Virus genome (UHGV): UHGV-0106768
Length of the DNA stretch: 44,108 nt
DNA from: a virus
Strand: one strand, 5' to 3'
Below are positions 105 through 39,530 of the stretch, piece by piece (the first letter of the stretch is position 1; the number at the start of each line of letters is the position of its first letter). Position numbers and translations under genes: made by a program. The notes beneath the pieces were generated by a model, which was not told the DNA's origin, made no database searches, and saw only the letters and a list, made by a program, of their open reading frames with translations.

Positions 105-1097
105 ATGACTATATATCTTGAAAGAGGACCGTTTCTCACCATTCCCGATAAGCTGCATCCGGGACAGTACAGAGTGATCCGTAACCCCGACTGGCACGGA
201 GAACTGCCGGAGATCGTGTCCTTCACCGATTTTCTCAAATGGAACTACACACTGGAGTACGGTCAGTATATCCGAAAACTGCACTGCTATCGTCGGCTTC
301 CGCTGCCGTGGGGCGTTCCACAGGATGCCGAGATCGAAACTGTCATCATCGAGGAAGGCAGATATGACCGCATTGATCACGATTCCTTTGATATGTATGT
401 GATATGCGATGTCGTGTTCGAGATGAACGGCTGCCGGCAATGCCAGAAGTATATCGTGCACGGCTTTTACTGCTCTTACGGCGGTTCAGACTTTCTGTGT
501 GATGCGGAGCTGTACGATGGGCAGTTTATCCGGCTGAACAATCCTCTGGATGAGTTTCTGGTTCCCGTTCTCTCAAAGAAAGACTTTGAGAGCATTGCAC
601 AGGATATCCTCAACAGCTACTATTCATATAAGTCGAATTATCCTTGCCGCATCAATACTGCTTCGATTGCAAAGGCTATGGGGCTTGACATCAAGTATGC
701 CCGACTGTCAAAAAACGGAAATGTCAAGTCCAAGCTGATCCTGGACAAGCGGGATACGACCGTCTATGATAAGGAATGCAAAGCTGTCAAAATGCGGATC
801 GACAGTCCTACGATCCTTGTGGACGAGTCATTGGAGGAGGATGAAGCGCAGAACGCCATTATTCATGAGTGCGTTCACGCTTACCTTCACAACCTCTTCT
901 ATGAGCTGCAGAGCTACTATCGGAAAATGGTCGGCAGGAAGATGCCGGAGTTCAATGACTACTTCTATTCCAAGACGCAGCGTAGCTGCCTGAAATGGAT
1001 GGAAACACAGGCAAATGCCATCCCACGCTTTATTCAGATGCCGGAGGAGCAGGCATCCGATGTCATCCTGAACTTCTTCGAGCGACTCCCCGGATAG
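105..1097 (+). CDS. HExxH zinc-metallopeptidase-like protein (ImmA/IrrE-like, tentative)
   Basis: 330-aa ORF with AGGAGG RBS 7 nt upstream of ATG 105; HExxH motif (IIHECVHAYLH) near C-terminus; ends at in-frame TAG 1095-1097 followed by open same-frame sequence. Confidence 0.55.
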   Translation: MTIYLERGPFLTIPDKLHPGQYRVIRNPDWHGELPEIVSFTDFLKWNYTLEYGQYIRKLHCYRRLPLPWGVPQDAEIETVIIEEGRYDRIDHDSFDMYVICDVVFEMNGCRQCQKYIVHGFYCSYGGSDFLCDAELYDGQFIRLNNPLDEFLVPVLSKKDFESIAQDILNSYYSYKSNYPCRINTASIAKAMGLDIKYARLSKNGNVKSKLILDKRDTTVYDKECKAVKMRIDSPTILVDESLEEDEAQNAIIHECVHAYLHNLFYELQSYYRKMVGRKMPEFNDYFYSKTQRSCLKWMETQANAIPRFIQMPEEQASDVILNFFERLPG

Positions 1098-1133: not shown

Positions 1134-2033
1134 GTGAAATGGAAGTTCGGAGTATCCCGCAATGCTGCGAAGAAGCGTATCATTGAGCTTGGCTGGCCGG
1201 AGGTGCGCGGTGTGTATGTCTACAACACCACAGGATATGTTGAGGACTACGATGTCGAACTGAGATTCCCGGATGACTATACCTATACACTGTCATTCCG
1301 TCATATCTCTGATGTGTTCGCATCCTGCGAGACCTTTGCAGAGCTTGTAAGCTCCAAGAAGTTCATATATCTGGACGGTCATGTTGTCATCAACAGCGAC
1401 AAGTATATCCGTAAGGAACACGGCATCGCTATAGGCTTGACAGAGTATGCTAGACACCACATGGCAGAGTGCTGTCTGGATTTCAAGCGTATCTACGCAG
1501 AATTCGACTACAGCTATACCTATGGCGAGCTACACAAGGATGACCTGACCGAGATCACGGCCGAAAACCGTTCGTTCAGCGATGAACAGCGAAAGAAGAT
1601 CCGCATGGCAATGTATGAGATCACAGAAGAAAACGATAAACTGACCGTTCCTTCAGATGTCAACGAATTCGGCAAGGCGGTGCGTTTCCATATGGAGAGA
1701 TGCGGTCTCACCTCGGATCTGGTTGCAGACCGCAGCGGCATGGGTGTGAACACTGTCAATAAGATGCGCAGCGGTAAGAAAGTGAAGCTCGAAACGGTAC
1801 TGGCATTCTGTGTAGCTTTGGAGCTTGAGGAGTCGTTCCGCATTGACCTTATGCAGAAAGCAAAGGTCGATTATGATATGAACAATCCCGCCCACAGGTT
1901 GTATGTGACGATTTTTGAGCTTATGGAGAAGCCTAATGTGTTTCAGATCAACGAACTGCTGAAGGCAGAAGGCTTTACTCCGTGGACGAGAGACTGCGAG
2001 GAAAAGAAGCGGTACGCTAAGATAAGTATGTAA
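1134..2033 (+). CDS. HTH (XRE-like) DNA-binding protein; possibly the C-terminal part of the upstream ORF
   Basis: 299-aa ORF in same frame as 105..1097; nominal GTG start with no RBS; C-terminal region (GKAVRFHMERCGLTSDLVADRSGMGVNTVNKMRSG) resembles a helix-turn-helix. Confidence 0.5.
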   Translation: MKWKFGVSRNAAKKRIIELGWPEVRGVYVYNTTGYVEDYDVELRFPDDYTYTLSFRHISDVFASCETFAELVSSKKFIYLDGHVVINSDKYIRKEHGIAIGLTEYARHHMAECCLDFKRIYAEFDYSYTYGELHKDDLTEITAENRSFSDEQRKKIRMAMYEITEENDKLTVPSDVNEFGKAVRFHMERCGLTSDLVADRSGMGVNTVNKMRSGKKVKLETVLAFCVALELEESFRIDLMQKAKVDYDMNNPAHRLYVTIFELMEKPNVFQINELLKAEGFTPWTRDCEEKKRYAKISM

Positions 2034-6327: not shown

Positions 6328-9213
6328 GTGGTGATTTTATTGAGCAGACGTGTACTTTCTATCGACCTTGAGACCTACAGCGATGTTGACCTTCCGAACT
6401 GCGGTGTGTACCGCTATGTTGAGGGGGATTTTCATATCCTGCTGTTCGCATATGCATTCGATGATGAAGAAACAAAGTGTATCGACATGGCCTGCGGTGA
6501 ACAGCTTCCCGCAGAGGTTGTGGATGCCATACACAATGAAAATATCATCAAATCTGCGTGGAATGCGCAGTTTGAGCGCATCTGTCTGTCAAAATATCTC
6601 GGCATCAGGCTTTCTCCGGACTCGTGGCAATGCACGATGGTATGGGCGGCATCGCTGTCCCTGCCGCTGAAGCTGGCAACGGCAGCACAGGCTTTGAAAA
6701 CTGCACAGCAGAAAGACAGTGTCGGTGAACGGCTGATCCGCTACTTTTCGATTCCGTGTAAGCCTACCAAATCTAACGGCGGTCGCACACGCAATCTGCC
6801 GGAACACGCTCCGGAGGACTGGGCGCTGTTCAAAAGCTACTGTATTCAGGATGTGGAAACGGAACGGGATATCCGCCGAAGACTTGAAAAGTTTCCGCTG
6901 ATGCCGCAGGAATGGGATTTTTATCACATGGATCAGCGGATCAATGACCGCGGCATCCTGATCGACAGAGAGCTTGTGCAGCAGGCAATTATCTGTAATA
7001 TGGCAATGTCTGAGGAGATGACCAAACGCGCCTATGCACTGACGGGACTTGAAAATCCCAATTCTGTATCTCAGCTGAAGTCATGGCTGGAAGATCGCGG
7101 CATCGAGGTGGATTCCCTCGGCAAAAAGAATGTCGCTTCTCTGATCACAGACCTTGACAAGCACAGTGCGGACGGTGAAGCTCTGGATATGATGAAGCTG
7201 CGGTTGCAGATGGCAAAGTCCTCTGTGAAAAAGTATCAGGCGGCAGAGAGATACATCTGTCAGGACGGCAGGGCGCACGGACTGTTTCAGTTTTCCGGAG
7301 CTCAGCGAACACAGCGCTGGTGTCTTACCGGCGATCATGAAATACTGACAGATAAAGGCTGGCTCAGGCTTGATAATTGGCAGGGCGGTAAGATTGCTTG
7401 TTGGAATCCTAATCAGGAAATGGTCTCGTTCCAGAAAGCGAACGTATTGTGCTTTGAATATGACGGTCCTATCTACCGCTATGAGGACAAACGGATCGAT
7501 CAGATCAGCACGCCGGATCACAAAATGCGTGTAAAGAAACGGTATAACGGCGAGTGGACGGATGACACTGTTGGCAATATGGAAAAGTATCGTCCTTCTA
7601 TTCCGTTTACCGGACGCAGACAAACGATGCCCGGCTTGGAGCACGCAGAACTGAGGGTACTGGTGATGACGCAGGCTGACGGCAGCTATAAAGAAGATGG
7701 AATGCTCTGCTTCCATTTCAAGAAGAAAAGGAAAATAGAACGGTGCAAACATCTGCTCAGACAGGCGGGCATTTATTTCACAGTGAATGAATGCAGGACA
7801 GATGGAACAACGCAGATCAAGATTCCTTCCCGTGAGCAGCCGATGTATCTAAGAATGTTTCATAACAAGACATTTGGAATGTGGCTTCTCGATGAAAGCC
7901 CGGATGTTTTCTTTGATGAGCTTCGGTATTGGGACGGATCGCAAAGCGCCAAAAACAGTATCCAATATACCACAACGAACAAAGTGAATGCCGATATTGT
8001 TCAGGCTTTTGCTCATACAAGTGGTCGCTGTGCAAAAATGAAACCGGTCATCCGGGATAAAGAACACCCGAATTGGAGCGATGCATACTATCTCGATATA
8101 TGGCTCACTCCGAAAAACTGTCATGAAATCAGAGTGAAGCCGACTATCTCGCAATTCAGCGGCAAAATATACTGTGCTGAAACCCCAACCGGATACTTCC
8201 TTGTAAGACGTAATGGTAAAGTGTGGGTAACAGGAAACAGCGGGCGCGGCATTCAATTACAGAACCTGCCGCAGAACCACATCTCTACCCTCGATGAAGC
8301 AAGAGAACTTGTCAAAATGGGCTGCTTTGACATGATCGAAGCACTGTACGGCAATACGCCGGATATCCTGTCACAGCTTATCCGCACGATGCTCATTCCG
8401 AAGGACGGCTGTGAATTTATCGTGGCAGACTTCTCCGCCATTGAAGCGAGAGTACTTGCGTGGCTTGCCGGAGAACAGTGGCGGCTCGATGCCTTCAAGC
8501 GTGGCGAGGATATTTACTGTGCATCCGCATCGCAAATGTTCGGTGTTCCGGTCGTGAAGCACGGCATCAACGGTGAACTGCGGCAGAAAGGCAAGGTCGC
8601 AGAATTGGCCTGCGGTTACGGCGGCGGTGCCGGTGCGCTGATCTCAATGGGCGCACTGGATATGGGACTGAAAGAGGACGAACTTCCCGACATCATTTCA
8701 AGCTGGCGCGACGCAAACCCGGAGATCGTGAAATTCTGGTATGCTGTGGAAAAAGCCGCGATTGAAACAGTCAAGGATCACAATGACAGATCGGTCGGCC
8801 GGATCGGATTTCAGTTTTCAGCAAATACACTGTGGATCGTTCTTCCGTCCGGACGCAGGCTTGCCTACATCAAACCGAGATTACAGCCGAACCGCTTCGG
8901 GCGTATGGCACTGACATTTGAGGGGCTTGGTGCAAACAACAAGTGGGTGCGCGGCGAAACCTATTCCGGCAAGCTGACAGAGAACATCACACAGGCAACT
9001 GCCCGTGATCTCCTTGCAGAAGCAATGCGCCGTATAGAACTTGCAGGGCTTGGAATCGTCGGGCATGTGCATGATGAGGTCATTCTCGAAGTGCCGAAAG
9101 GACAATACACGGTCGATGATGTATGCAGCATCATGAATCAGAATCCGAAATGGGCGGAGGACTTACCGTTGTCAAGTGCAGGATATACGGGTGCATGGTA
9201 CTACAAAGATTAA
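6328..9213 (+). CDS. family A DNA polymerase with 3'-5' exonuclease domain, intein-containing
   Basis: Exo I motif SIDLETYS; pol motif A IVADFSAIEAR, motif B RQKGKVAELACGYGGG, motif C VHDEVI; NLQNLP-like motif; start ambiguous (GTG 6328 or TTG 6340). Confidence 0.85.
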   Translation: MVILLSRRVLSIDLETYSDVDLPNCGVYRYVEGDFHILLFAYAFDDEETKCIDMACGEQLPAEVVDAIHNENIIKSAWNAQFERICLSKYLGIRLSPDSWQCTMVWAASLSLPLKLATAAQALKTAQQKDSVGERLIRYFSIPCKPTKSNGGRTRNLPEHAPEDWALFKSYCIQDVETERDIRRRLEKFPLMPQEWDFYHMDQRINDRGILIDRELVQQAIICNMAMSEEMTKRAYALTGLENPNSVSQLKSWLEDRGIEVDSLGKKNVASLITDLDKHSADGEALDMMKLRLQMAKSSVKKYQAAERYICQDGRAHGLFQFSGAQRTQRWCLTGDHEILTDKGWLRLDNWQGGKIACWNPNQEMVSFQKANVLCFEYDGPIYRYEDKRIDQISTPDHKMRVKKRYNGEWTDDTVGNMEKYRPSIPFTGRRQTMPGLEHAELRVLVMTQADGSYKEDGMLCFHFKKKRKIERCKHLLRQAGIYFTVNECRTDGTTQIKIPSREQPMYLRMFHNKTFGMWLLDESPDVFFDELRYWDGSQSAKNSIQYTTTNKVNADIVQAFAHTSGRCAKMKPVIRDKEHPNWSDAYYLDIWLTPKNCHEIRVKPTISQFSGKIYCAETPTGYFLVRRNGKVWVTGNSGRGIQLQNLPQNHISTLDEARELVKMGCFDMIEALYGNTPDILSQLIRTMLIPKDGCEFIVADFSAIEARVLAWLAGEQWRLDAFKRGEDIYCASASQMFGVPVVKHGINGELRQKGKVAELACGYGGGAGALISMGALDMGLKEDELPDIISSWRDANPEIVKFWYAVEKAAIETVKDHNDRSVGRIGFQFSANTLWIVLPSGRRLAYIKPRLQPNRFGRMALTFEGLGANNKWVRGETYSGKLTENITQATARDLLAEAMRRIELAGLGIVGHVHDEVILEVPKGQYTVDDVCSIMNQNPKWAEDLPLSSAGYTGAWYYKD
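7321..8238 (+). mobile_element. intein (306 aa) with LAGLIDADG homing-endonuclease domain inside the PolA gene
   Basis: Begins CLTGDHEILTDKGW (block A), TPDH block B, two LAGLIDADG-like motifs (VMTQADGSY, LRYWDGS), ends ...VWVTGN followed by Ser; removing it joins RTQRW to SGRGIQLQNLP, restoring the conserved TGR-S/NLQN region. Confidence 0.7.
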
Positions 9214-24352: not shown

Positions 24353-24594
24353 CGAAACAGGAATGTGCCATCGTGACAGCGTACACAGGGTTCGCTATGC
24401 TGAAGGGCAGCGACCTGAAATATCTGTACAATTATCTCTCCGGTCTCATCGGCAGGCCGGTGTATTCACACGAGATCCCTGCGGTCGCAGAAGCCTGCAA
24501 GGAACAAATACGAGAAGATTTCCTTGCCCTGTGCAGGAACGCAAAGGAGGCGGATGATGGATCATACAACAATGACGCTCGGCAGTCTGTTTGA
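24349..24594 (+). CDS. hypothetical small protein
   Basis: 81-aa ORF overlapping both MTase genes. Confidence 0.4.
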   Translation: MTKQECAIVTAYTGFAMLKGSDLKYLYNYLSGLIGRPVYSHEIPAVAEACKEQIREDFLALCRNAKEADDGSYNNDARQSV

Positions 24595-26848
24595 CGGCTC
24601 CGGGGGCTTTCCGCTTGGTGGCATCCTCGCAGGGATCGAGCCAAGGTGGAGCAGCGAAATTGAACCTTTTCCGGTGCTTGTCACGCACAAGCGGCTGCCG
24701 CAGGTGCAGCACTACGGTGATGTATCTACGCTGAACGGCGCAGAGCTTCCGCCGGTGGATATCATCACCTTAGGCAGTCCTTGTCAGGACCTGTCTATTG
24801 CGGGCAAGCGTGCCGGAATCCATGACGGTGATCGGTCGAACCTGTTCTTTCAGGCGATCCGCATCATCAAAGAAATGAGGGATGCAACAAATGGACGATA
24901 TCCGCGATACTGCGTCTGGGAAAATGTCCCCGGCGCTTTCTCATCCAACGGAGGAAACGACTTCAAGGCTGTCCTCGAAGCAGTTATCGGAGTTAAAGAA
25001 AAAGGGATCGAGGTGCCTGCGCCTGAAAATCACAGATGGGCAAAATCAGACGTATATCTGGGAGACGGATGGAGCGTGGCTTACCGAGTTTTCGATGCTC
25101 AATACTGGGGTGTCCCCCAACGCAGAGCAAGAATCTACCTTGTCGCAGATTTTGCTGGCGAAAGTGCCGGAGAAATACTATTTAAGTCCGAAGGCGTGTC
25201 TTGGTATACTCCGCAGGGCTTCCGTGCGTGGCAAGGAGCTGCCGGAGGTGCTGAAGAAGGCACTGGAGAAACAGGCGGGCGGTCTGACGCTGGAGGTGGA
25301 ACCCTCTGCCTGAATACACAGGGCAACAGCGGCGTCGGCATCACCGAGGACAAGGCTCTCGCACTGGTCGCACAGGATCACGGGAATCATCCTGCCGTTC
25401 TTGCCGCAGGTTTTTCCACAGAGCATAGTGCAAAAGCACGCAGCATCGGATACGAGGAGGAAGTCTCCCCGACACTGAGAGCAGGTGTTGTTCCTGCGGC
25501 ACTCTCGGTCGAAAACCATCCGACAGACGGTCGTGTGAAGATCCGTGAGGACGACACCTGCCAGACACTTTGCAGCAGAGCCGGGACGGGCGGCAACAAT
25601 GTACCGCTTGTCGCTGAACCGATCACGCTGAAAATCAGGTCAGGCTGCGAAGGCGGCGGCAAGGGCGCTCTCTGGCAAACTGATAAATCTGCTACGCTTG
25701 CTACCAACAACAACCAGACACTCTTTCAGCCAGAGATCAAAGCCTTCGGTGTATGTAGCAAGCATTCCAATGCGATGATGTCAGACAATCCGCACAGTGG
25801 CTTTTACGAAGCGACCACGAGCAGAACGCTTGACCAGAGCGGTGGAAACTCCGTAACATCGAATCAGGGCGGCATCTGCGTGGTAGCACCTGCGCCGGAG
25901 ACATTCGATGTGCGTTTCACATCGGACGGCACGAAAAATGCTCGTGGGCATTGTTACCCGACAGACATTTCCCGATGCCTTGATACGAGCGAGGGATCGC
26001 CAGACTCGAATCACGGCGGTGTCGCTGTGGTGGCTCTTGAACCGGGGGCTGCATCACGTGTCGGCGGTCATGTGTACAGTGACGGCAAAAGCGGTACGCT
26101 TCGAGCCAATGCCGGCGATAATCAGCAGGCTGTTGTGGTCGCCGAGCCGGAGACCTATGCTCTGCAAGGCTCGATGATCGGTCGTGCCGACAAGAACGGT
26201 CCGCAGGGTGACGGCATCAATGAGGATGTGTGCTTTACGCTCAATACTTCAGACAGGCACGCTATTGCCGCACCCGATCCGTCTTTCACGATTTCCCGTG
26301 ACAATCACTTCGCCGTTTCGGAAGATATATCTGTTACGGCAGTTGCGAGAGGTCCTGCAACGGTCGCAGCCCCGGCAGATCACTACTGCACAAGCAAGAA
26401 TTCACACCACACGGTCGCTGTGCATGAGCAGGCAAACACGCTGGTCGCATCCGACTGGAAGGATCCGCCGCTTGTGAACGACCTTCCGAATGACGAGCCG
26501 GTATATATCGTAAGAAGGCTGACTCCGGTGGAGTGCGCCAGATTGCAGGGATTCCCGGACTGGTGGTGTGCCGACCTTGCGATTCCTGATCCTTCTGACG
26601 AGGAGATCGCCTTCTGGATGGAAGTATGGGAAACTTGGAGACAGATCACAAATCCCAAGGGCAAACCGAAAACGGAAAAGCAGATCCGCAAATGGCTGGC
26701 TAATCCGTACACGGACAGTGCCGAGTACAAGTTATGGGGCAACGGTGTCTCAGAGCCCGTTGTGTTCTTCGTGCTATCCGGCATTGCCTGGGCGGCACAG
26801 AATTCTGAAACTAATGCAGCAAATTGTGAACATTCTGATACTATGTAA
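24557..26848 (+). CDS. DNA (cytosine-5) methyltransferase, unusually long, probably multispecific
   Basis: Motif I LFDGSGG, motif IV GSPCQDLS, motif VI ENVPG, C-terminal motif IX/X RRLTPVECARLQGFPDWW; ~450-aa variable region between catalytic and C-terminal motifs. Confidence 0.85.
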   Translation: MDHTTMTLGSLFDGSGGFPLGGILAGIEPRWSSEIEPFPVLVTHKRLPQVQHYGDVSTLNGAELPPVDIITLGSPCQDLSIAGKRAGIHDGDRSNLFFQAIRIIKEMRDATNGRYPRYCVWENVPGAFSSNGGNDFKAVLEAVIGVKEKGIEVPAPENHRWAKSDVYLGDGWSVAYRVFDAQYWGVPQRRARIYLVADFAGESAGEILFKSEGVSWYTPQGFRAWQGAAGGAEEGTGETGGRSDAGGGTLCLNTQGNSGVGITEDKALALVAQDHGNHPAVLAAGFSTEHSAKARSIGYEEEVSPTLRAGVVPAALSVENHPTDGRVKIREDDTCQTLCSRAGTGGNNVPLVAEPITLKIRSGCEGGGKGALWQTDKSATLATNNNQTLFQPEIKAFGVCSKHSNAMMSDNPHSGFYEATTSRTLDQSGGNSVTSNQGGICVVAPAPETFDVRFTSDGTKNARGHCYPTDISRCLDTSEGSPDSNHGGVAVVALEPGAASRVGGHVYSDGKSGTLRANAGDNQQAVVVAEPETYALQGSMIGRADKNGPQGDGINEDVCFTLNTSDRHAIAAPDPSFTISRDNHFAVSEDISVTAVARGPATVAAPADHYCTSKNSHHTVAVHEQANTLVASDWKDPPLVNDLPNDEPVYIVRRLTPVECARLQGFPDWWCADLAIPDPSDEEIAFWMEVWETWRQITNPKGKPKTEKQIRKWLANPYTDSAEYKLWGNGVSEPVVFFVLSGIAWAAQNSETNAANCEHSDTM

Positions 26849-34932: not shown

Positions 34933-34962
34933 AGGCTTGCAGTTTTGCAGGCCTTTTCTTTA
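34933..34962 (+). terminator. terminator-like hairpin plus T-tract immediately upstream of terS
   Basis: AGGCTTGCA / TGCAGGCCT stem (one G-U pair), GTTT loop, then TTTTCTTT; only ~25 nt before the terS start. Confidence 0.4.
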
Positions 34963-34992
34963 TGCACATTTTTATTGGAAGGAGTGATGCGG

Positions 34993-35466
34993 ATGGCTCA
35001 GAGAGGCAGAAAACCAACGCCTACGGCGATCAAAGAGCTGGAAGGCAATCCGGGCAAGCGTCCGCTGAATGATGCAGAGCCGAAGCCGGAACGCAAGGCA
35101 CCGCCCTGTCCGAAGTGGCTGGAGCCCGAAGCAAAAAAGGAATGGCGCAGGCTGTCAAAGCAACTGGAGCAGATTGGTGTGCTGACCGAGGTCGATCAGG
35201 CGGCATTCGCATCCTACTGTCAGGCATACGCACGATGGAAAGAAGCCGAGGAATTCATGACCCAGCACGGCACGATCGTAAAAACAAAATCAGGTTACTG
35301 GCAGCAGGTTCCGCAGGTATCCATTGCGCAAACTTATCTGAAGATCATGAACAAGATCGCAGAGCAGTTTGGCCTGACCCCGGCGGCAAGAAGCCGTATC
35401 ACTGCCGGCGCAGATATGAAAAACGCTGCCGTTGACGATATGGATGAACTTCTCGGAGGTGGCTGA
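34993..35466 (+). CDS. terminase small subunit (P27 family)
   Basis: GRKPTPTAIKELEGNPGKRPLN...AFASYCQAYARWKEAEEF...FGLTPAARSRI pattern; GGAAGGAG RBS; in-frame ATG also at 34987. Confidence 0.75.
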   Translation: MAQRGRKPTPTAIKELEGNPGKRPLNDAEPKPERKAPPCPKWLEPEAKKEWRRLSKQLEQIGVLTEVDQAAFASYCQAYARWKEAEEFMTQHGTIVKTKSGYWQQVPQVSIAQTYLKIMNKIAEQFGLTPAARSRITAGADMKNAAVDDMDELLGGG

Positions 35467-38132
35467 TGGCGAGAACGGCAAAGGCAAGAGAAAGACCTGC
35501 CAACTATCCGAAACTGAAGGATTATAAACCGACACGCTTTATGCTGCCGGAATCGCACTACGATGCGGCAAAGGCTGACCGAGCTGTGCGGTTCATCGAG
35601 AATCTCTGCCATACCAAAGGACGCTGGGCAGGCAAACCGTTCTGGCTGCTTCCGTGGCAGGAACAGATCATCCGGGATATTTTCGGCATCGTCAAAGAGG
35701 ACGATATGCGGCAATTTCGTACCGCCTATGTCGAAATTCCAAAGAAAAATGGGAAGCAGCTTGCACTGGATACACCGATCCCGACTCCGCAGGGATTCAC
35801 CAATATGGGAGATCTGAAGGTCGGAGATACAGTATTCGATGAAAACGGCATTCCGTGCCATGTGGTTGCGAAAAGTCCTGTGGATGATACAGAGCAAGCC
35901 TACAAGCTGACCTTCAAGGACGGCACCTCGATCATTGCCGGGGAAAGGCATCTGTGGAACTGTCAGTATATTTACGGCAAACGCAAGGATGTTCTCTGGA
36001 CGACCGGCGAGATCTATCGCAGGACAACGGAATACAGACAGCGTTTTTCCGACAGACCACAGACAAAGCGGGATTCCCTTATCCGAATTCCGGTGTGCGG
36101 TGTCCTTCAGACAGAAGCGGCAGTTTTACCGATTGATCCGTATCTGTACGGCTACTGGCTCGGAAACGGTAATGTGACCATGCCGGAGATCACTGTTCGG
36201 ACGGAGGATGTCGAGGATATCATCTCGAATATTCCGTATAAGGTACACAACCGTTATCCGCAGAAATGCGGCGGCAGTGAGATCATAAAGTACAATGAAC
36301 TGAAAGCAGTACTACTTGACAGCTTCCGTGAAAAGAAGATCCGACCAGAATATCTGAGGGCATCCGCAGAGCAGAGATGGGCATTACTGCAAGGGCTTAT
36401 GGATTCGGACGGCTGTATCGGTGAACGCAAAGGGCAAAGTGTGTATGTCACAACGCTGCGAGAGCTGGCGCTTTCCGTCAGAGAACTGCTGTGGTCACTC
36501 GGCATCAAAAATGCAGTGAAATGTGAGCCTTCTACACGGCATGGGTGGCCGACCGGCGAGATTTTGTATATCGTCCGTTTTACAACCTTTGATGACCAAC
36601 CGACATCAAGGCTTAAACGCAAAAATACACGCACACAGGCGCGGTTAAAGGAAACTCGCTCCTGTTTTCATTATCTGCTGGATATTCAACCTGTAAATCA
36701 TCCTGTAAAAATGCAGTGCATTCAGGTGGACAGTCCGAGTCACCAATATCTCGCAGGACCGTCATTTGTGCCTACGCACAACAGTGAGCTTGCAGCGGCA
36801 ATTGCACTGTATCTGCTCTACGCCGACAACGAGCCGTCTGCTGAGGTCTACGGCGCTGCTGCTGATCGTGGGCAGGCATCCATTGTATTCGATGTCGCCA
36901 AAAGAATGGTTGAGATGACACCGGCACTTCTGAAACGCTCAAAAATCATGGCGGCGACAAAGCGTCTGGTGAATTACAGTAATGTTGGCTTTTATCAGGT
37001 GCTTTCAGCGGAAGTCGGTACAAAGCACGGATTGAATGTATCCGGTCTGGTTTTGGATGAACTTCATGCCCAACCGAACCGCAGCCTTGTGGATGTTCTC
37101 ACAAAGGGTTCCGGTGATGCCCGTACTCAGCCGCTGTACTTCCTGATCACAACCGCCGGAACGGATCGCAACAGCATCTGCTACGAGTATCACACGAAAG
37201 CAAAAGATATTCTGGACGGCAGGCGCATTGATCCGTCCTTCTATCCTGTGATCTACGGCTTGAACGATGATGACGACTGGAACGCAGAGGAGTCATGGTA
37301 TAAGGCAAATCCCTCGCTCGGATACACTATCGCCATCGACCGAGTCCGCGATGCTCACCGGGAAGCCCTTACAAATCCCGCTGAAGAAAATGTATTCCGT
37401 CAGCTGAGGCTTGACCAGTGGGTAGGCAGTGCGGTGGCATGGATTCCGGAGCATATCTACGACAGGGGCAATCTTCCGATCGACCTCGAAAAGCTCCGGG
37501 GACGGGAGTGCTACGCAGGTCTTGACCTATCCAGCACATCGGATATCACGGCATTTGTGCTGGTGTTCCCTCCGCTGCATGACGGCGAGAAATACATCGT
37601 TGTCCCGCACTTCTGGCTGCCGAGAGAAACGCTCGATTTACGAGTACGGCGAGACCATGTTCCCTACGATGTATGGGAGCGCATGGGATTATTTCATATC
37701 ACCGAGGGCAATGTGGTCGATTACAATTTCGTGCGGAAAACGATCAACGAGCTGCACACGATGTACAACATCAAGGAAATTGCTGCCGACCGCTGGAATG
37801 CCACACAGCTTATCACAGACCTTGAGGGAGACGGATTTACCGTTGTTCCGATGGGCATGGGCTTCAAGGATATGTCCCCGCCGATGAAGGAACTGTACAA
37901 GCTCATACTCGAAGGGCAGTTTATCCACGGCGGCAACCCTGTACTCCGCTGGATGGCAGGAAATGTGGTCGCTGAAATTGATGCAGCGGAGAACATCAAA
38001 CCAAGTAAAAAGAAAAGTACAGAAAAGATTGACGGTATCGTGGCATGGATCATGGCACTTGACCGCTGCATCCGCCACGAAATGCAGGGCAGTGTCTATG
38101 ACGAACCCGGCCACGATCTTGTGGTCATCTGA
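35466..38132 (+). CDS. terminase large subunit, intein-containing
   Basis: Walker A KKNGK split from SELAAAIALYLLYAD by an insertion; downstream Walker B-like LVLDELHAQ, ITTAGTD, nuclease-domain motifs. Confidence 0.85.
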   Translation: MARTAKARERPANYPKLKDYKPTRFMLPESHYDAAKADRAVRFIENLCHTKGRWAGKPFWLLPWQEQIIRDIFGIVKEDDMRQFRTAYVEIPKKNGKQLALDTPIPTPQGFTNMGDLKVGDTVFDENGIPCHVVAKSPVDDTEQAYKLTFKDGTSIIAGERHLWNCQYIYGKRKDVLWTTGEIYRRTTEYRQRFSDRPQTKRDSLIRIPVCGVLQTEAAVLPIDPYLYGYWLGNGNVTMPEITVRTEDVEDIISNIPYKVHNRYPQKCGGSEIIKYNELKAVLLDSFREKKIRPEYLRASAEQRWALLQGLMDSDGCIGERKGQSVYVTTLRELALSVRELLWSLGIKNAVKCEPSTRHGWPTGEILYIVRFTTFDDQPTSRLKRKNTRTQARLKETRSCFHYLLDIQPVNHPVKMQCIQVDSPSHQYLAGPSFVPTHNSELAAAIALYLLYADNEPSAEVYGAAADRGQASIVFDVAKRMVEMTPALLKRSKIMAATKRLVNYSNVGFYQVLSAEVGTKHGLNVSGLVLDELHAQPNRSLVDVLTKGSGDARTQPLYFLITTAGTDRNSICYEYHTKAKDILDGRRIDPSFYPVIYGLNDDDDWNAEESWYKANPSLGYTIAIDRVRDAHREALTNPAEENVFRQLRLDQWVGSAVAWIPEHIYDRGNLPIDLEKLRGRECYAGLDLSSTSDITAFVLVFPPLHDGEKYIVVPHFWLPRETLDLRVRRDHVPYDVWERMGLFHITEGNVVDYNFVRKTINELHTMYNIKEIAADRWNATQLITDLEGDGFTVVPMGMGFKDMSPPMKELYKLILEGQFIHGGNPVLRWMAGNVVAEIDAAENIKPSKKKSTEKIDGIVAWIMALDRCIRHEMQGSVYDEPGHDLVVI
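35757..36782 (+). mobile_element. class-3-like intein (342 aa) with LAGLIDADG homing-endonuclease domain inside terL
   Basis: Starts QLALDTPIPTPQGF (Gln, not Cys/Ser/Thr); block B HLW; block F Cys (MQCIQVD); ends FVPTHN followed by Ser; LAGLIDADG-like LYGYWLGNGN and LLQGLMDSDG; excision restores EIPKKNGK-SELAAAIALY. Confidence 0.7.
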
Positions 38133-38147
38133 CAGGAGGTAATGTTT

Positions 38148-39530
38148 ATGAGCTTTTTAAGCTGGCTCGGCATCAGCAAGCCGAGAGATGCGCCGATGCT
38201 GCCTGATATTCAGGACAATGTCCGTGATTCTGGAAATCTGTTCGTATTCGGCATGACGCACAGCGGTGAACGTGTCGATGAGCGCACGGCGATGCAGATC
38301 GTGACTGTTTACGCCTGTGTTCGACTGCTCTCCAATACGATTGCTGGACTGCCGCTGCACCTATACAGATACACCGGCAAGGGCGATGATAAGGAATTAG
38401 CCATTGACCATCCGCTGTACAAAATACTCTATCGGCAGCCGAATCCCGAAATGAGTTCATTCTCGTTCTGGGAAGCACTGATGTGCCACCTTTTACTATG
38501 GGGCAACGCCTATGCACAGATTGTCCGGGACGGCAAAAACGGCATCCTCGGTCTCTATCCCCTGCTTCCCGAAAATGTCGAGATCGACCGTGATCCGAAA
38601 TCCGGCGACCTGATCTACACTTACCACGCCTACACCGACGAAAAGCCCGGTGAGCATGACAAGGATATTATCTTCCGCAGGGATGAAATCTTACACATCC
38701 CCGGTCTGGGATTCAATGGACTGGTCGGTTTCTCACCGATAGCGATGATGAAAAATGCACTCGGTGCGGTCATGGCAGTAGAGCGATACGGCAGCGCCTT
38801 CTTCAAAAACGGAGCGCAGCCTGCCGGAGTTCTCGAACATCCGGGCGTGCTGAAGGATCCGCAGAAGATCCGCGACAACTGGACAAAGGCATACGGCGGC
38901 GCACGGAACGCACACCGCATCGCAGTCCTCGAAGAAGGTATGCAGTATAAGCCAATCTCCCTGCCGCCGGAGGATTCGCAGTTTCTGTCCACAAGAGAAT
39001 TCGATGTGGAGGAAATCTGCCGGATGTTTCAGGTTCCGCCGCATCTGGTACAAGACCTCAAACGCAGTACCTTCAATAACATCGAGCATCAGGGTATTGC
39101 ATTTGTGCAGTATTCTCTTATGCCGTGGATCATTCGCATCGAAAAGGGCATCATGAAAGATTTGCTGCTTGAAGAGGAACAGGATGTATATTTTCCGAAG
39201 TTCAATGTGGACGGTCTCATGCGAGGTGATTATCAGAGCCGCATGAACGCCTATGCCATAGGTGTGGGTAACGGCTTTATGTCGCCCAATGATGTGCGCC
39301 GTCTTGAAAATATGGACTTGATCCCTGACGATCAGGGCGGCAACGACTACTACCTGAACGGCTCGTATAACAAGCTGGAGGATGCAGGTGCGGCATATGC
39401 TCTGAATCAGCCGCAGGAACAGCCGGATACCGAGGAACAGGATGAGCCGGACGAGAATCCGGGCGAAGAAACCGATGACAGATTCCTGCGAAAAAAGCGC
39501 AGGAAGAAATACAAGAATGGGGGTATGTAA
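38148..39530 (+). CDS. portal protein (HK97 family)
   Basis: Conserved VYACVRLLSNTIAGLP...GNAY...FFKNGAQP pattern; AGGAGGT RBS 7 nt upstream (ORF track starts at ATG 38142). Confidence 0.8.
   Translation: MSFLSWLGISKPRDAPMLPDIQDNVRDSGNLFVFGMTHSGERVDERTAMQIVTVYACVRLLSNTIAGLPLHLYRYTGKGDDKELAIDHPLYKILYRQPNPEMSSFSFWEALMCHLLLWGNAYAQIVRDGKNGILGLYPLLPENVEIDRDPKSGDLIYTYHAYTDEKPGEHDKDIIFRRDEILHIPGLGFNGLVGFSPIAMMKNALGAVMAVERYGSAFFKNGAQPAGVLEHPGVLKDPQKIRDNWTKAYGGARNAHRIAVLEEGMQYKPISLPPEDSQFLSTREFDVEEICRMFQVPPHLVQDLKRSTFNNIEHQGIAFVQYSLMPWIIRIEKGIMKDLLLEEEQDVYFPKFNVDGLMRGDYQSRMNAYAIGVGNGFMSPNDVRRLENMDLIPDDQGGNDYYLNGSYNKLEDAGAAYALNQPQEQPDTEEQDEPDENPGEETDDRFLRKKRRKKYKNGGM

What the first reader, a model, noticed from the sequence alone, without database searches (positions are those of the whole stretch)
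35757..36782. Class-3-like intein (Gln1, Trp/Cys/Thr triad) splitting the terminase P-loop
The terL Walker A motif is split (KKNGK / SELAAAIALY) by a 342-aa insertion with Hint block A (LALDTPIPTPQGF), LAGLIDADG endonuclease motifs, a C-terminal THN and Ser as the +1 residue. The first residue is Gln rather than Cys/Ser/Thr, and the block B Trp (HLW), block F Cys (MQCIQVD) and block G Thr (THN) match the WCT signature of class 3 inteins, which splice through a branched intermediate on the block F cysteine. Terminase activity would depend on protein splicing.
Basis: partly seen in the sequence, partly recalled or inferred. Interest (0 to 1): 0.7.

Follow-up and report, generated by a model that had tools for sequence, protein, structure and literature searches.

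The report
Class 3 intein in phage terminase
The phage DNA-packaging enzyme (large terminase) is interrupted in its ATP-binding loop by a self-splicing protein element of a known, widespread kind (a class 3 intein with a homing endonuclease), so this is a well-supported but ordinary example.

Summary
ORF 35466..38132 (+) encodes an 888-aa large terminase. Its Walker A motif PKKNGK|S is split by a 342-aa insertion (35757-36782). Intein-free alleles that are 97% identical read ...PKKNGKSELAAAIALY... without a break.

The insertion aligns without gaps to experimentally characterised class 3 inteins (Msm DnaB-1, PDB 6bs8, E 1e-21). This places His65, Trp67, Cys321 (block F:4), Thr340, His341, Asn342 and Ser+1 at the defining positions. 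All of these are invariant in 94 distinct family members. Residue 1 is Gln or Glu, which cannot act as a nucleophile. An AlphaFold model (pLDDT 87) matches PI-SceI-type intein endonucleases and the class 3 DnaB inteins.

Full, mini (157 aa) and empty alleles coexist in near-identical phage backgrounds. Both extein and intein are under strong purifying selection, which argues for active splicing.

This kind is already described. Tori et al. 2010 noted WCT inteins in phage terminase P-loops, and the homologous superfamily has more than 15,000 cluster representatives. Gln1/Glu1 is a minority variant (about 5%) among many non-nucleophilic first residues.

Verdict: a new member of a known kind, of low to moderate interest. 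Two side notes: the first LAGLIDADG catalytic Asp is a conserved Asn, and the DNA polymerase gene carries a second intein.

The parts
34945..35466 (+). Terminase small subunit gene (terS). Its stop overlaps the terL start.
   Evidence: PHROG phrog_83 terminase small subunit, E 1.7e-59; ORF list.
35466..38132 (+). terL precursor ORF, 888 aa: N-extein, intein and C-extein.
   Evidence: Pfam TerL_ATPase E 1.3e-19 and TerL_nuclease E 2.9e-47; phrog_9 E 2.5e-176.
35466..35756 (+). N-extein (aa 1-97). It ends with the first part of Walker A, PKKNGK (35739-35756). Lys97 is residue -1.
   Evidence: Alignment to intein-free TerL; codons checked.
35757..36782 (+). Class 3 intein, 342 aa, Gln1 to Asn342.
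   Evidence: Clean 342-aa gap against intein-free alleles; PDB hits 6bs8, 6rix and 6riy at E 1e-21 to 5e-18; Foldseek hits to PI-SceI, TliVMA and the class 3 DnaB inteins.
35757..35795 (+). Block A (QLALDTPIPTPQG). Gln1 is the non-nucleophilic first residue.
   Evidence: Aligns to (A)LALDTPLPTP of Msm DnaB-1. Position 1 is Q in 75 and E in 19 of 94 distinct family members.
35949..35957 (+). Block B His65-Leu66-Trp67 (B:10 His and B:12 Trp of the WCT triplet).
   Evidence: Ungapped alignment to His65 and Trp67 of Msm DnaB-1 (PMC5222942). Invariant in 94 of 94 family members.
36069..36656 (+). LAGLIDADG homing-endonuclease domain (about aa 105-300). Motif 1 is LYGYWLGNGN (36144-36173) with Asn137 (36165-36167) at the catalytic position. 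Motif 2 is LLQGLMDSDG (36384-36413) with Asp218 (36408-36410).
   Evidence: Pfam LAGLIDADG_3 E 1.9e-7. A profile against PI-SceI aligns N137 to D218 and D218 to D326. dN/dS is about 0.09. The 157-aa mini alleles lack this domain.
36708..36758 (+). Block F (KMQCIQVDSPSHQYLAG). Cys321 (36717-36719) is the F:4 nucleophile.
   Evidence: Aligns to Cys118 of Msm DnaB-1. Invariant in 94 of 94 family members and in 131 of 131 distant homologues.
36774..36785 (+). Block G: Thr340-His341-Asn342, then Ser+1 (36783-36785), which is also the Walker A Ser.
   Evidence: THN followed by S is found in all 119 family members.
36783..38132 (+). C-extein: the rest of the ATPase domain plus the nuclease domain.
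   Evidence: Pfam. dN/dS is 0.02-0.03 between intein-bearing alleles.

Best explanation
This is an active class 3 intein with a nested LAGLIDADG homing-endonuclease domain. It sits between Lys97 and the Ser of the TerL Walker A motif (GK|S). The 888-aa precursor cannot form a P-loop, so it must splice to become a working terminase.

Proposed splicing pathway, inferred from the class 3 mechanism:
1. The thiol of Cys321 (block F:4), activated by His65 and positioned with help from Trp67 and Thr340, attacks the Lys97-Gln1 peptide bond. This gives a thioester branched intermediate on Cys321.
2. The N-extein is transferred to the hydroxyl of Ser+1, giving the standard block G branched intermediate.
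3. Asn342 cyclises and releases the intein.
4. An O-to-N acyl shift restores the Lys-Ser peptide bond and an intact PKKNGKS P-loop.

At the DNA level the element behaves as a mobile, selfish insertion in terL of temperate phages of gut and rumen Bacillota. Full, mini and empty alleles segregate in the same phage lineage.

Shown here: the anatomy, the homology, the residue conservation, the allele polymorphism and the purifying selection. Inferred: the chemistry, that splicing actually occurs, and that the endonuclease drives homing.
For: - **Precise insertion in GK|S:** supported by a 73%-identical cultured-phage TerL and by 97%-identical 546-aa alleles.
- **Homology to characterised class 3 inteins:** E 1e-21 ungapped alignment to Msm DnaB-1 and also to Mch DnaB-1, with H65, W67, C321, T340, H341 and N342 at the published positions (PMC5222942, PMC7664689).
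- **Conservation:** all of these residues, plus Ser+1, are invariant in 94 distinct inteins of the family. Residue 1 is only Q or E there, or L in one genome locus.
- **Distant homologues:** among 131 full-length homologues from 150 cluster representatives, C is 131/131, W 125, T 128, N 130, +1 is S or T in 126, and -1 is K in 89.
- **Structure:** the AF2 model has pLDDT 87 and pTM 0.87. It matches PI-SceI, TliVMA and PI-PfuI (TMq 0.6-0.7) and the class 3 DnaB inteins (TMt about 0.8).
- **Selection:** dN/dS is 0.05 for the Hint N lobe, 0.09 for the endonuclease domain and 0.02-0.03 for the C-extein, with synonymous sites often saturated.
- **Spread:** the intein-bearing terL occurs in more than 50 genomes and MAGs across Oscillospiraceae, Lachnospiraceae, Acidaminococcus, Megasphaera and Selenomonas, and on viral contigs.
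- **Literature:** WCT inteins are reported in phage terminase large subunits, mostly in the P-loop (PMC2807308). The Lys|Thr P-loop site is called 'classic' (PMC5050341).
Against: - No experiment shows a spliced product for this intein.
- Pfam and NCBIfam Hint/intein models do not score it.
- Many carriers are prophages that could in principle be defective.
- A few genome loci (for example L049, L050, L051, L052) did not yield an uninterrupted intein reading frame in my parser. These may be disrupted copies or contig ends, and I did not examine them.
- The first LAGLIDADG catalytic position is Asn, not Asp. Double-strand cleavage by the endonuclease, and hence current homing, is uncertain.
Confidence: 0.9

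Rival explanations
1. It is a degenerate, non-splicing intein remnant in a defective prophage. The interrupted terL would then be a dead gene, or the precursor would work without splicing.
For: Inactive class 3 inteins exist, for example Arsp-FB24 Arth_1007, which lacks Cys F:4 (PMC3196547). Many carriers here are integrated prophages. Some loci gave no intact intein frame.
Against: All catalytic residues are intact and invariant in 94 family members. Hint-domain dN/dS is about 0.05 and C-extein dN/dS is 0.02-0.03, despite saturated synonymous sites. The insertion separates Lys from Ser in the P-loop, so an unspliced protein could not bind ATP normally. The window carries a complete packaging and head module next to terL.
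Confidence: 0.05
2. It splices, but by a class 1-like or class 2-like route. In a class 2 route, Ser+1 would attack the N-terminal junction directly, without a Cys321 branched intermediate.
For: Class 2 inteins also lack an N-terminal nucleophile (PMC4031507). The mechanism was not tested here.
Against: Gln1 cannot undergo an N-S or N-O acyl shift, so class 1 is excluded. All known class 2 inteins are KlbA orthologues with Ala1, Ser at G:6 and Cys+1 (PMC4031507). This intein instead has the full WCT triplet, His at G:6 and Ser+1, and it is a sequence homologue of inteins in which Cys F:4 is obligatory (PMC2807308, PMC5222942).
Confidence: 0.04
3. Splicing is conditional. The intein would act as a redox or stress switch that delays terminase maturation, as proposed for the homologous Msm DnaB-1 intein, and would not be a purely selfish element.
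For: Msm DnaB-1, the closest solved homologue, is reversibly inhibited by oxidative stress through its catalytic Cys (PMC6195587). This intein has eight cysteines (34, 69, 114, 171, 220, 256, 303, 321). The hosts are strict anaerobes.
Against: Nothing was tested here. Empty and intein-bearing alleles coexist in the same lineage, so the intein is dispensable. The pattern fits a selfish homing cycle.
Confidence: 0.15

Closest known systems
Mycobacterium smegmatis DnaB-1 and M. chimaera DnaB-1 class 3 mini-inteins (PDB 6bs8, 6rix, 6riy)
   Same: They share homologous Hint lobes (E 1e-21 to 5e-18, ungapped) with identical positions of His65, Trp67, Cys F:4, Thr-His-Asn and block A LALDTP. Both have P-loop-type insertion sites in an ATPase. 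The modelled splicing domain superposes on them with TMt about 0.8.
   Different: Their host protein is the DnaB helicase, not TerL. They are mini-inteins of 139-145 aa with no endonuclease. Their residue 1 aligns to window Gln1, but its identity was not printed by the tools. From my recollection, not checked here, it is Ala.
Mycobacteriophage Bethlehem DnaB intein (class 3 prototype; Tori et al. 2010, PMC2807308)
   Same: It has almost the same size (341 aa against 342) and the same architecture: a class 3 Hint domain plus a LAGLIDADG endonuclease. It has a non-nucleophilic residue 1, the WCT triplet, Thr or Ser at +1, and a phage origin.
   Different: It has Pro1 rather than Gln1, its host gene is dnaB, and its +1 residue is Thr. 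I did not align its sequence directly here.
Class 3 TerL inteins of actinobacteriophages (LittleE, Omega, Nebkiss and Gaia; Kelley 2016 PMC5050341; Gosselin 2025 bioRxiv 10.1101/2025.01.02.630785) and of Vibrio, Rhodobacter and Acidovorax phages
   Same: They are homologous over the full length at 33-36% identity and carry WCT, THN and a LAGLIDADG endonuclease. Several sit in terL at a G-K|T P-loop, for example Vibrio phage 489E54-1 KYGK|A...THN|T.
   Different: Their residue 1 is Ala, Arg, Cys or Gly. Most have Asp in LAGLIDADG motif 1, although Acidovorax ACF1 also has Asn. They belong to different host phyla and different terminase lineages. No GenBank phage record exceeds 60% identity.
PI-SceI (VMA1 intein) and related bifunctional intein endonucleases
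   Same: They share the two-domain fold of a Hint domain plus a LAGLIDADG domain (Foldseek E 4e-18, TMq 0.7). The LAGLIDADG helices align, with window D218 matching PI-SceI D326.
   Different: PI-SceI is a class 1 intein (Cys1, Cys+1). It has Asp218 where the window has Asn137. Sequence identity is about 15%.

Membership tests
Intein (Hint-fold protein-splicing element) | In-frame insertion that is precisely absent from orthologous alleles, within a conserved host-protein motif | tested here: met
   There is a clean 342-aa gap between GK and S of Walker A, both against the Javan244 TerL and against 97%-identical 546-aa alleles.
Intein (Hint-fold protein-splicing element) | Hint fold with splicing blocks A, B, F and G, a C-terminal Asn, and a nucleophilic +1 residue | tested here: met
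   PDB sequence hits to solved inteins at E 1e-21. The AF2 model with Foldseek matches PI-SceI, the class 3 DnaB inteins and the Hedgehog Hint domain. Asn342 and Ser+1 were verified. Pfam and NCBIfam Hint models gave no hit.
Intein (Hint-fold protein-splicing element) | Demonstrated protein splicing (excised intein plus ligated exteins) | not testable with these tools
   Only indirect support is available: purifying selection on intein and extein and invariant catalytic residues.
Class 3 intein (Tori et al. 2010) | No Cys, Ser or Thr nucleophile at intein position 1 | tested here: met
   The window has Gln1. The family has Q in 75 and E in 19 of 94. Distant homologues have A 80, P 17, L 6, M 5, S 5, Q 4, E 3 and others.
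Class 3 intein (Tori et al. 2010) | WCT triplet: Trp at B:12, Cys at F:4, Thr at G:5 | tested here: met
   Trp67, Cys321 and Thr340 align to the same positions in Msm DnaB-1, where Cys118 is F:4 (PMC5222942). All three are invariant in the family.
Class 3 intein (Tori et al. 2010) | Ser or Thr (rarely Cys) as the +1 residue | tested here: met
   Ser+1 is present in all 119 family members. Distant homologues have S 75, T 51 and C 5.
Class 3 intein (Tori et al. 2010) | Belongs to the monophyletic class 3 clade | tested here: inconclusive
   The best hits in PDB, in GenBank phages and in the representative library are all WCT inteins. I did not build a phylogeny that includes class 1 outgroups.
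Class 3 intein (Tori et al. 2010) | Obligate Cys F:4 nucleophile and a block F branched intermediate | not testable with these tools
   This needs C321A/S mutagenesis and trapping of the intermediate.
LAGLIDADG homing endonuclease (intein-nested, two-motif monomer) | Two LAGLIDADG helices within the alpha-beta-beta-alpha-beta-beta-alpha pseudo-dimer fold | tested here: met
   Pfam LAGLIDADG_3 E 1.9e-7. Both motifs align to PI-SceI blocks C and E. Foldseek also matches I-DmoI and PI-SceI.
LAGLIDADG homing endonuclease (intein-nested, two-motif monomer) | An acidic catalytic residue (Asp or Glu) at the end of each LAGLIDADG motif | tested here: not met
   Motif 2 has Asp218, matching PI-SceI D326. 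Motif 1 has Asn137 where PI-SceI has D218. Asn occupies this position in 78 of 81 family members, in 40 of 40 genome loci down to 54% identity and in 12 of 131 distant homologues. The fold belongs to the family, but canonical two-strand cleavage is in doubt.

The most novel reading that the evidence does not exclude
The nested LAGLIDADG domain, with Asn conserved in place of the first catalytic Asp and yet under strong purifying selection (dN/dS about 0.09), may not be a decaying endonuclease. It could be a natural single-strand nicking LAGLIDADG enzyme, or it could have a retained non-cleaving role such as DNA binding or assisting folding and splicing. Separately, the strict Gln/Glu at position 1 in this clade could take part in activating the N-terminal scissile bond, instead of being a neutral filler residue.
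Probability: 0.15. Interest if true: 0.6.

Novelty: new member of a known kind. Interest (0 to 1): 0.3.

Why it matters
The element shows that terminase maturation, and therefore DNA packaging, in a common group of gut and rumen Bacillota temperate phages depends on class 3 protein splicing.

The lineage also offers a natural set of full, mini and empty alleles in almost identical genomes. That is convenient material for studying the intein homing cycle and for finding compact class 3 mini-inteins (157 aa, Ser+1) for protein engineering.

It does not change the current understanding of inteins. The class, the host protein and the insertion site are all already described.

Tried and rejected
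- **Profile libraries:** Pfam and NCBIfam scans for Hint or intein-splicing models gave only endonuclease hits, or weak hits to intein-containing equivalogs. I therefore relied on PDB sequence hits and the fold search.
- **Literature:** Tori and Perler 2011 (PMC3133030) and the supplementary tables of Tori 2010 are not held. I could not check whether Gln1 class 3 inteins are already listed in InBase. I replaced this with my own census of 131 homologues.
- **Composition:** GC content in the intein is 0.48-0.51, against 0.50-0.56 in the flanks. This gives no clear foreign signature.
- **C5-methyltransferase ORF (24524..26848):** I considered a third intein here because of a split PHROG match. 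I rejected it because the sequence has no splicing blocks and looks like a long variable region.
- **Alternative intein boundaries:** only Gln1 to Asn342 reproduces the intein-free sequence.
- **Geometry:** the distance from Cys321 to the scissile bond could not be measured, because model coordinates are not exposed.
Full report
**1. What is in the sequence**

The + strand ORF 35466..38132 encodes an 888-aa protein. Its ends match the terminase large subunit (Pfam TerL_ATPase E 1.3e-19 in two stretches; TerL_nuclease E 2.9e-47; phrog_9 E 2.5e-176). It follows a small-terminase gene (34945..35466, phrog_83). Portal, head protease and major head protein genes come next.

The segment begins QLALDTPIPTPQGF and ends MQCIQVDSPSHQYLAGPSFVPTHN. 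PKKNGK lies upstream and SELAAAIALY lies downstream.

**2. It is a precise insertion in the P-loop**

- The intein-free TerL of Streptococcus phage Javan244 (73% identical over the exteins) reads VEIPKKNGKSELAAAIALYLLYAD. It aligns with a single clean 342-aa gap.
- A search with the conceptually spliced 546-aa protein found 546-aa alleles at 97% identity (P0121-P0127) with the same uninterrupted PKKNGKSELAAAIALY.
- The boundaries are therefore fixed at Lys97 | Gln1 ... Asn342 | Ser+1. The Ser is the Walker A Ser/Thr.

**3. It is a class 3 intein by every sequence criterion that can be tested**

- phmmer against all PDB chains gives, as best hits, the class 3 DnaB-1 inteins of M. smegmatis (6bs8, E 1.3e-21) and M. 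chimaera (6rix and 6riy, E 1e-18). The phage gp41-1 intein comes next.
- The alignment is ungapped in both Hint lobes. The published Msm DnaB-1 residues His65 (B:10), Trp67 (B:12), Cys118 (F:4) and Asn139 (G:7) (PMC5222942) therefore map to window His65, Trp67, Cys321 and Asn342. Thr340 falls at G:5.
- Tori et al. (PMC2807308) define class 3 by a non-nucleophilic residue 1, the WCT triplet, and Ser or Thr at +1. All three criteria are met.
- An AlphaFold2 model of the intein with five flanking residues on each side is confident (pLDDT 87, pTM 0.87).
- Foldseek against the PDB finds PI-SceI, TliVMA, PhoVMA and PI-PfuI over both domains (E down to 4e-18, TMq 0.6-0.7). It finds the class 3 DnaB inteins over the splicing domain (TMt about 0.8). 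I-DmoI, the Prp8 inteins and the Hedgehog Hint domain follow.
- The refutation condition 'no Hint-domain hit' therefore does not hold, even though Pfam and NCBIfam Hint profiles themselves did not score.

**4. Family context**

- Of the 120 best database relatives of the precursor, 119 carry an intein at the same site. They give 94 distinct intein sequences.
- His65, Trp67, Cys321, Asp325, Thr340, His341, Asn342 and Ser+1 are invariant in these sequences. Residue 1 is Gln (75) or Glu (19).
- A scan of species-representative genomes found 54 loci at 47-95% identity. The hosts are Oscillospiraceae, Lachnospiraceae (for example Faecalicatena contorta JCM 6483), Acidaminococcus, Megasphaera elsdenii, Selenomonas, Fonticella and others. 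These are prophages of gut, rumen and other anaerobic Bacillota. They show the same invariants, and one locus has Leu1.
- In GenBank phages, 607 records hold a full-length homologue at 33-36% identity. These include the known class 3 TerL inteins of mycobacteriophages LittleE, Omega and Gaia, the Cas4 exonuclease inteins, and TerL inteins of Vibrio, Rhodobacter and Acidovorax phages.
- An exhaustive HMMER scan of 1.84 billion cluster representatives found 15,018 proteins at E <= 1e-3 and 2,550 at E <= 1e-30.
- Counts in 131 full-length homologous segments from the top 150:

| Position | Residues observed |
|---|---|
| Intein residue 1 | A 80, P 17, L 6, M 5, S 5, Q 4, E 3, G 3, D 2, C 2, R 2, H 1, N 1 |
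| -1 | K 89 |
| -2 | G 73 |
| B:12 | W 125 |
| F:4 | C 131 |
| G:5 | T 128 |
| G:7 | N 130 |
| +1 | S 75, T 51, C 5 |

- The window's intein is therefore a typical member of a very large class. Gln1/Glu1 is a minority choice (about 5%), but unremarkable within a broad set of non-nucleophilic first residues.

**5. Evidence that it is functional, and a snapshot of the homing cycle**

- Three allele states coexist within the same terminase lineage (at least 95% extein identity):
  - empty (546 aa);
  - full intein (888 aa);
  - mini-intein (703 aa, with a 157-aa intein lacking the endonuclease domain).
- At the DNA level the mini allele L057 is about 100% identical to the window through both exteins and the first ~190 nt of the intein. 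It diverges only in the central region and for ~150 nt around the C-terminal junction.
- The empty allele L056 is 81-97% identical. It uses a TCT rather than an AGT Ser codon at the junction.
- Pairwise Nei-Gojobori estimates give dN/dS of about 0.05 for the Hint N lobe, 0.09 for the endonuclease domain and 0.24 for the short C lobe. The C-extein of intein-bearing alleles gives 0.02-0.03. Synonymous sites are saturated in most pairs.
- A terminase kept under this much constraint while its P-loop is interrupted implies efficient splicing. This is inference, not demonstration.

**6. Mechanism**

The proposed mechanism follows from established class 3 chemistry (PMC2807308, PMC4031507, PMC5222942, PMC7664689):
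1. Cys321 attacks the Lys97-Gln1 amide, forming the block F thioester branched intermediate.
2. Transesterification to Ser+1 forms the block G branched intermediate.
3. Asn342 cyclises and releases the 342-aa intein.
4. An O-N shift restores PKKNGKS.

None of these steps was observed here.

**7. Comparison with what is known, and novelty**

- Tori et al. [quoted passage not shown]
- Kelley et al. 2016 call the Lys|Thr P-loop site of TerL a 'classic' intein site.
- Gosselin et al. 2025 count 287 class 3 inteins in actinobacteriophages, mostly in TerL and Cas4.
- The present element extends this to a well-populated but apparently undescribed clade in Bacillota gut prophages. No GenBank phage record exceeds 60% identity.
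- It is a new member of a known kind.

**8. A feature that departs from the canonical picture**

- In the first LAGLIDADG motif (LYGYWLGNGN), Asn137 occupies the position of the catalytic Asp218 of PI-SceI. The second motif keeps its Asp (D218, matching PI-SceI D326).
- The Asn is found in 78 of 81 family members and in 40 of 40 genome loci down to 54% identity. It is also found in 12 of 131 distant homologues, and in the Acidovorax phage ACF1 TerL intein.
- Loss of the catalytic Asp residues in the LAGLIDADG motifs is taken as a sign of an inactive endonuclease (PMC8966425). Here, however, the domain is under strong purifying selection.
- Whether it cleaves, nicks or only binds DNA remains open.

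**9. Verdict**

Noticed in passing
window 7321-8238 (within ORF 6328..9213, +): The family-A DNA polymerase gene carries a second intein of 306 aa...FSGAQRTQRW | CLTGDHEIL...KVWVTGN | SGRGIQLQNLPQN. It has Cys1, a terminal Asn with a penultimate Gly, and Ser+1, so it looks like class 1. It is homologous over its full length (about 30% identity) to insertions in RtcB and ribonucleotide reductase genes of Bacillus and Staphylococcus phages. Block A matches the Spl DnaX mini-intein (E 1e-3).
   Followed up: partly
window 36144-36173 (Asn137 at 36165-36167): The first LAGLIDADG motif reads LGNGN. Asn replaces the catalytic Asp (PI-SceI D218), and this holds across the whole clade even though the endonuclease domain has dN/dS of about 0.09. 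It may be a nicking or non-cleaving endonuclease.
   Followed up: partly
L057/L058 (mini allele) and L056 (empty allele) against window 34966-38432: A 157-aa mini-intein allele sits in a phage that is about 100% DNA-identical to the window across terL. Identity drops to 80-89% only in the intein centre and for ~150 nt around the C-terminal junction, which suggests recent recombination or replacement of the endonuclease region. The empty allele uses TCT rather than AGT for the junction Ser and differs at several flanking wobble positions.
   Followed up: partly
P0106 (1166-aa TerL relative); equivalent window position after aa 518, about 37019: One relative carries a second, class-1-like intein of 282 aa (CVSEDTIV...GLITHN|T) inserted at SAEVG|TKHGLN in the ATPase domain, in addition to the P-loop class 3 intein.
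   Followed up: no
window 105..1097 and 1134..2033 (+): Two adjacent ORFs match the N-terminal half (positions 120-311) and the C-terminal half (336-622) of the same PHROG family, phrog_4031 (unknown function). This could be a split or interrupted gene.
   Followed up: no
window 24524..26848 (+): This 774-aa C5 cytosine DNA methyltransferase has a ~450-aa stretch between its conserved motifs. The Pfam match falls in three stretches, and phrog_116 spans aa 8-769 with only about 300 profile positions. No intein blocks are visible. It may be a multi-specific methyltransferase with expanded target-recognition regions.
   Followed up: partly
window 35757-35768 against 36786-36797: The intein start (Q/E)LAL (CAGCTTGCACTG) resembles the C-extein sequence just after Ser+1, ELAA (GAGCTTGCAGCG). 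This is probably coincidence, because LALDTP is the conserved class 3 block A in unrelated host proteins.
   Followed up: partly
L049, L050, L051, L052, L043, L048 (genome loci): Several genome loci with tblastn matches to the intein did not yield an uninterrupted intein ORF in my parser. Some matches are partial, and some have lengths that are not a multiple of three. They could be disrupted copies, further variants or contig ends.
   Followed up: no
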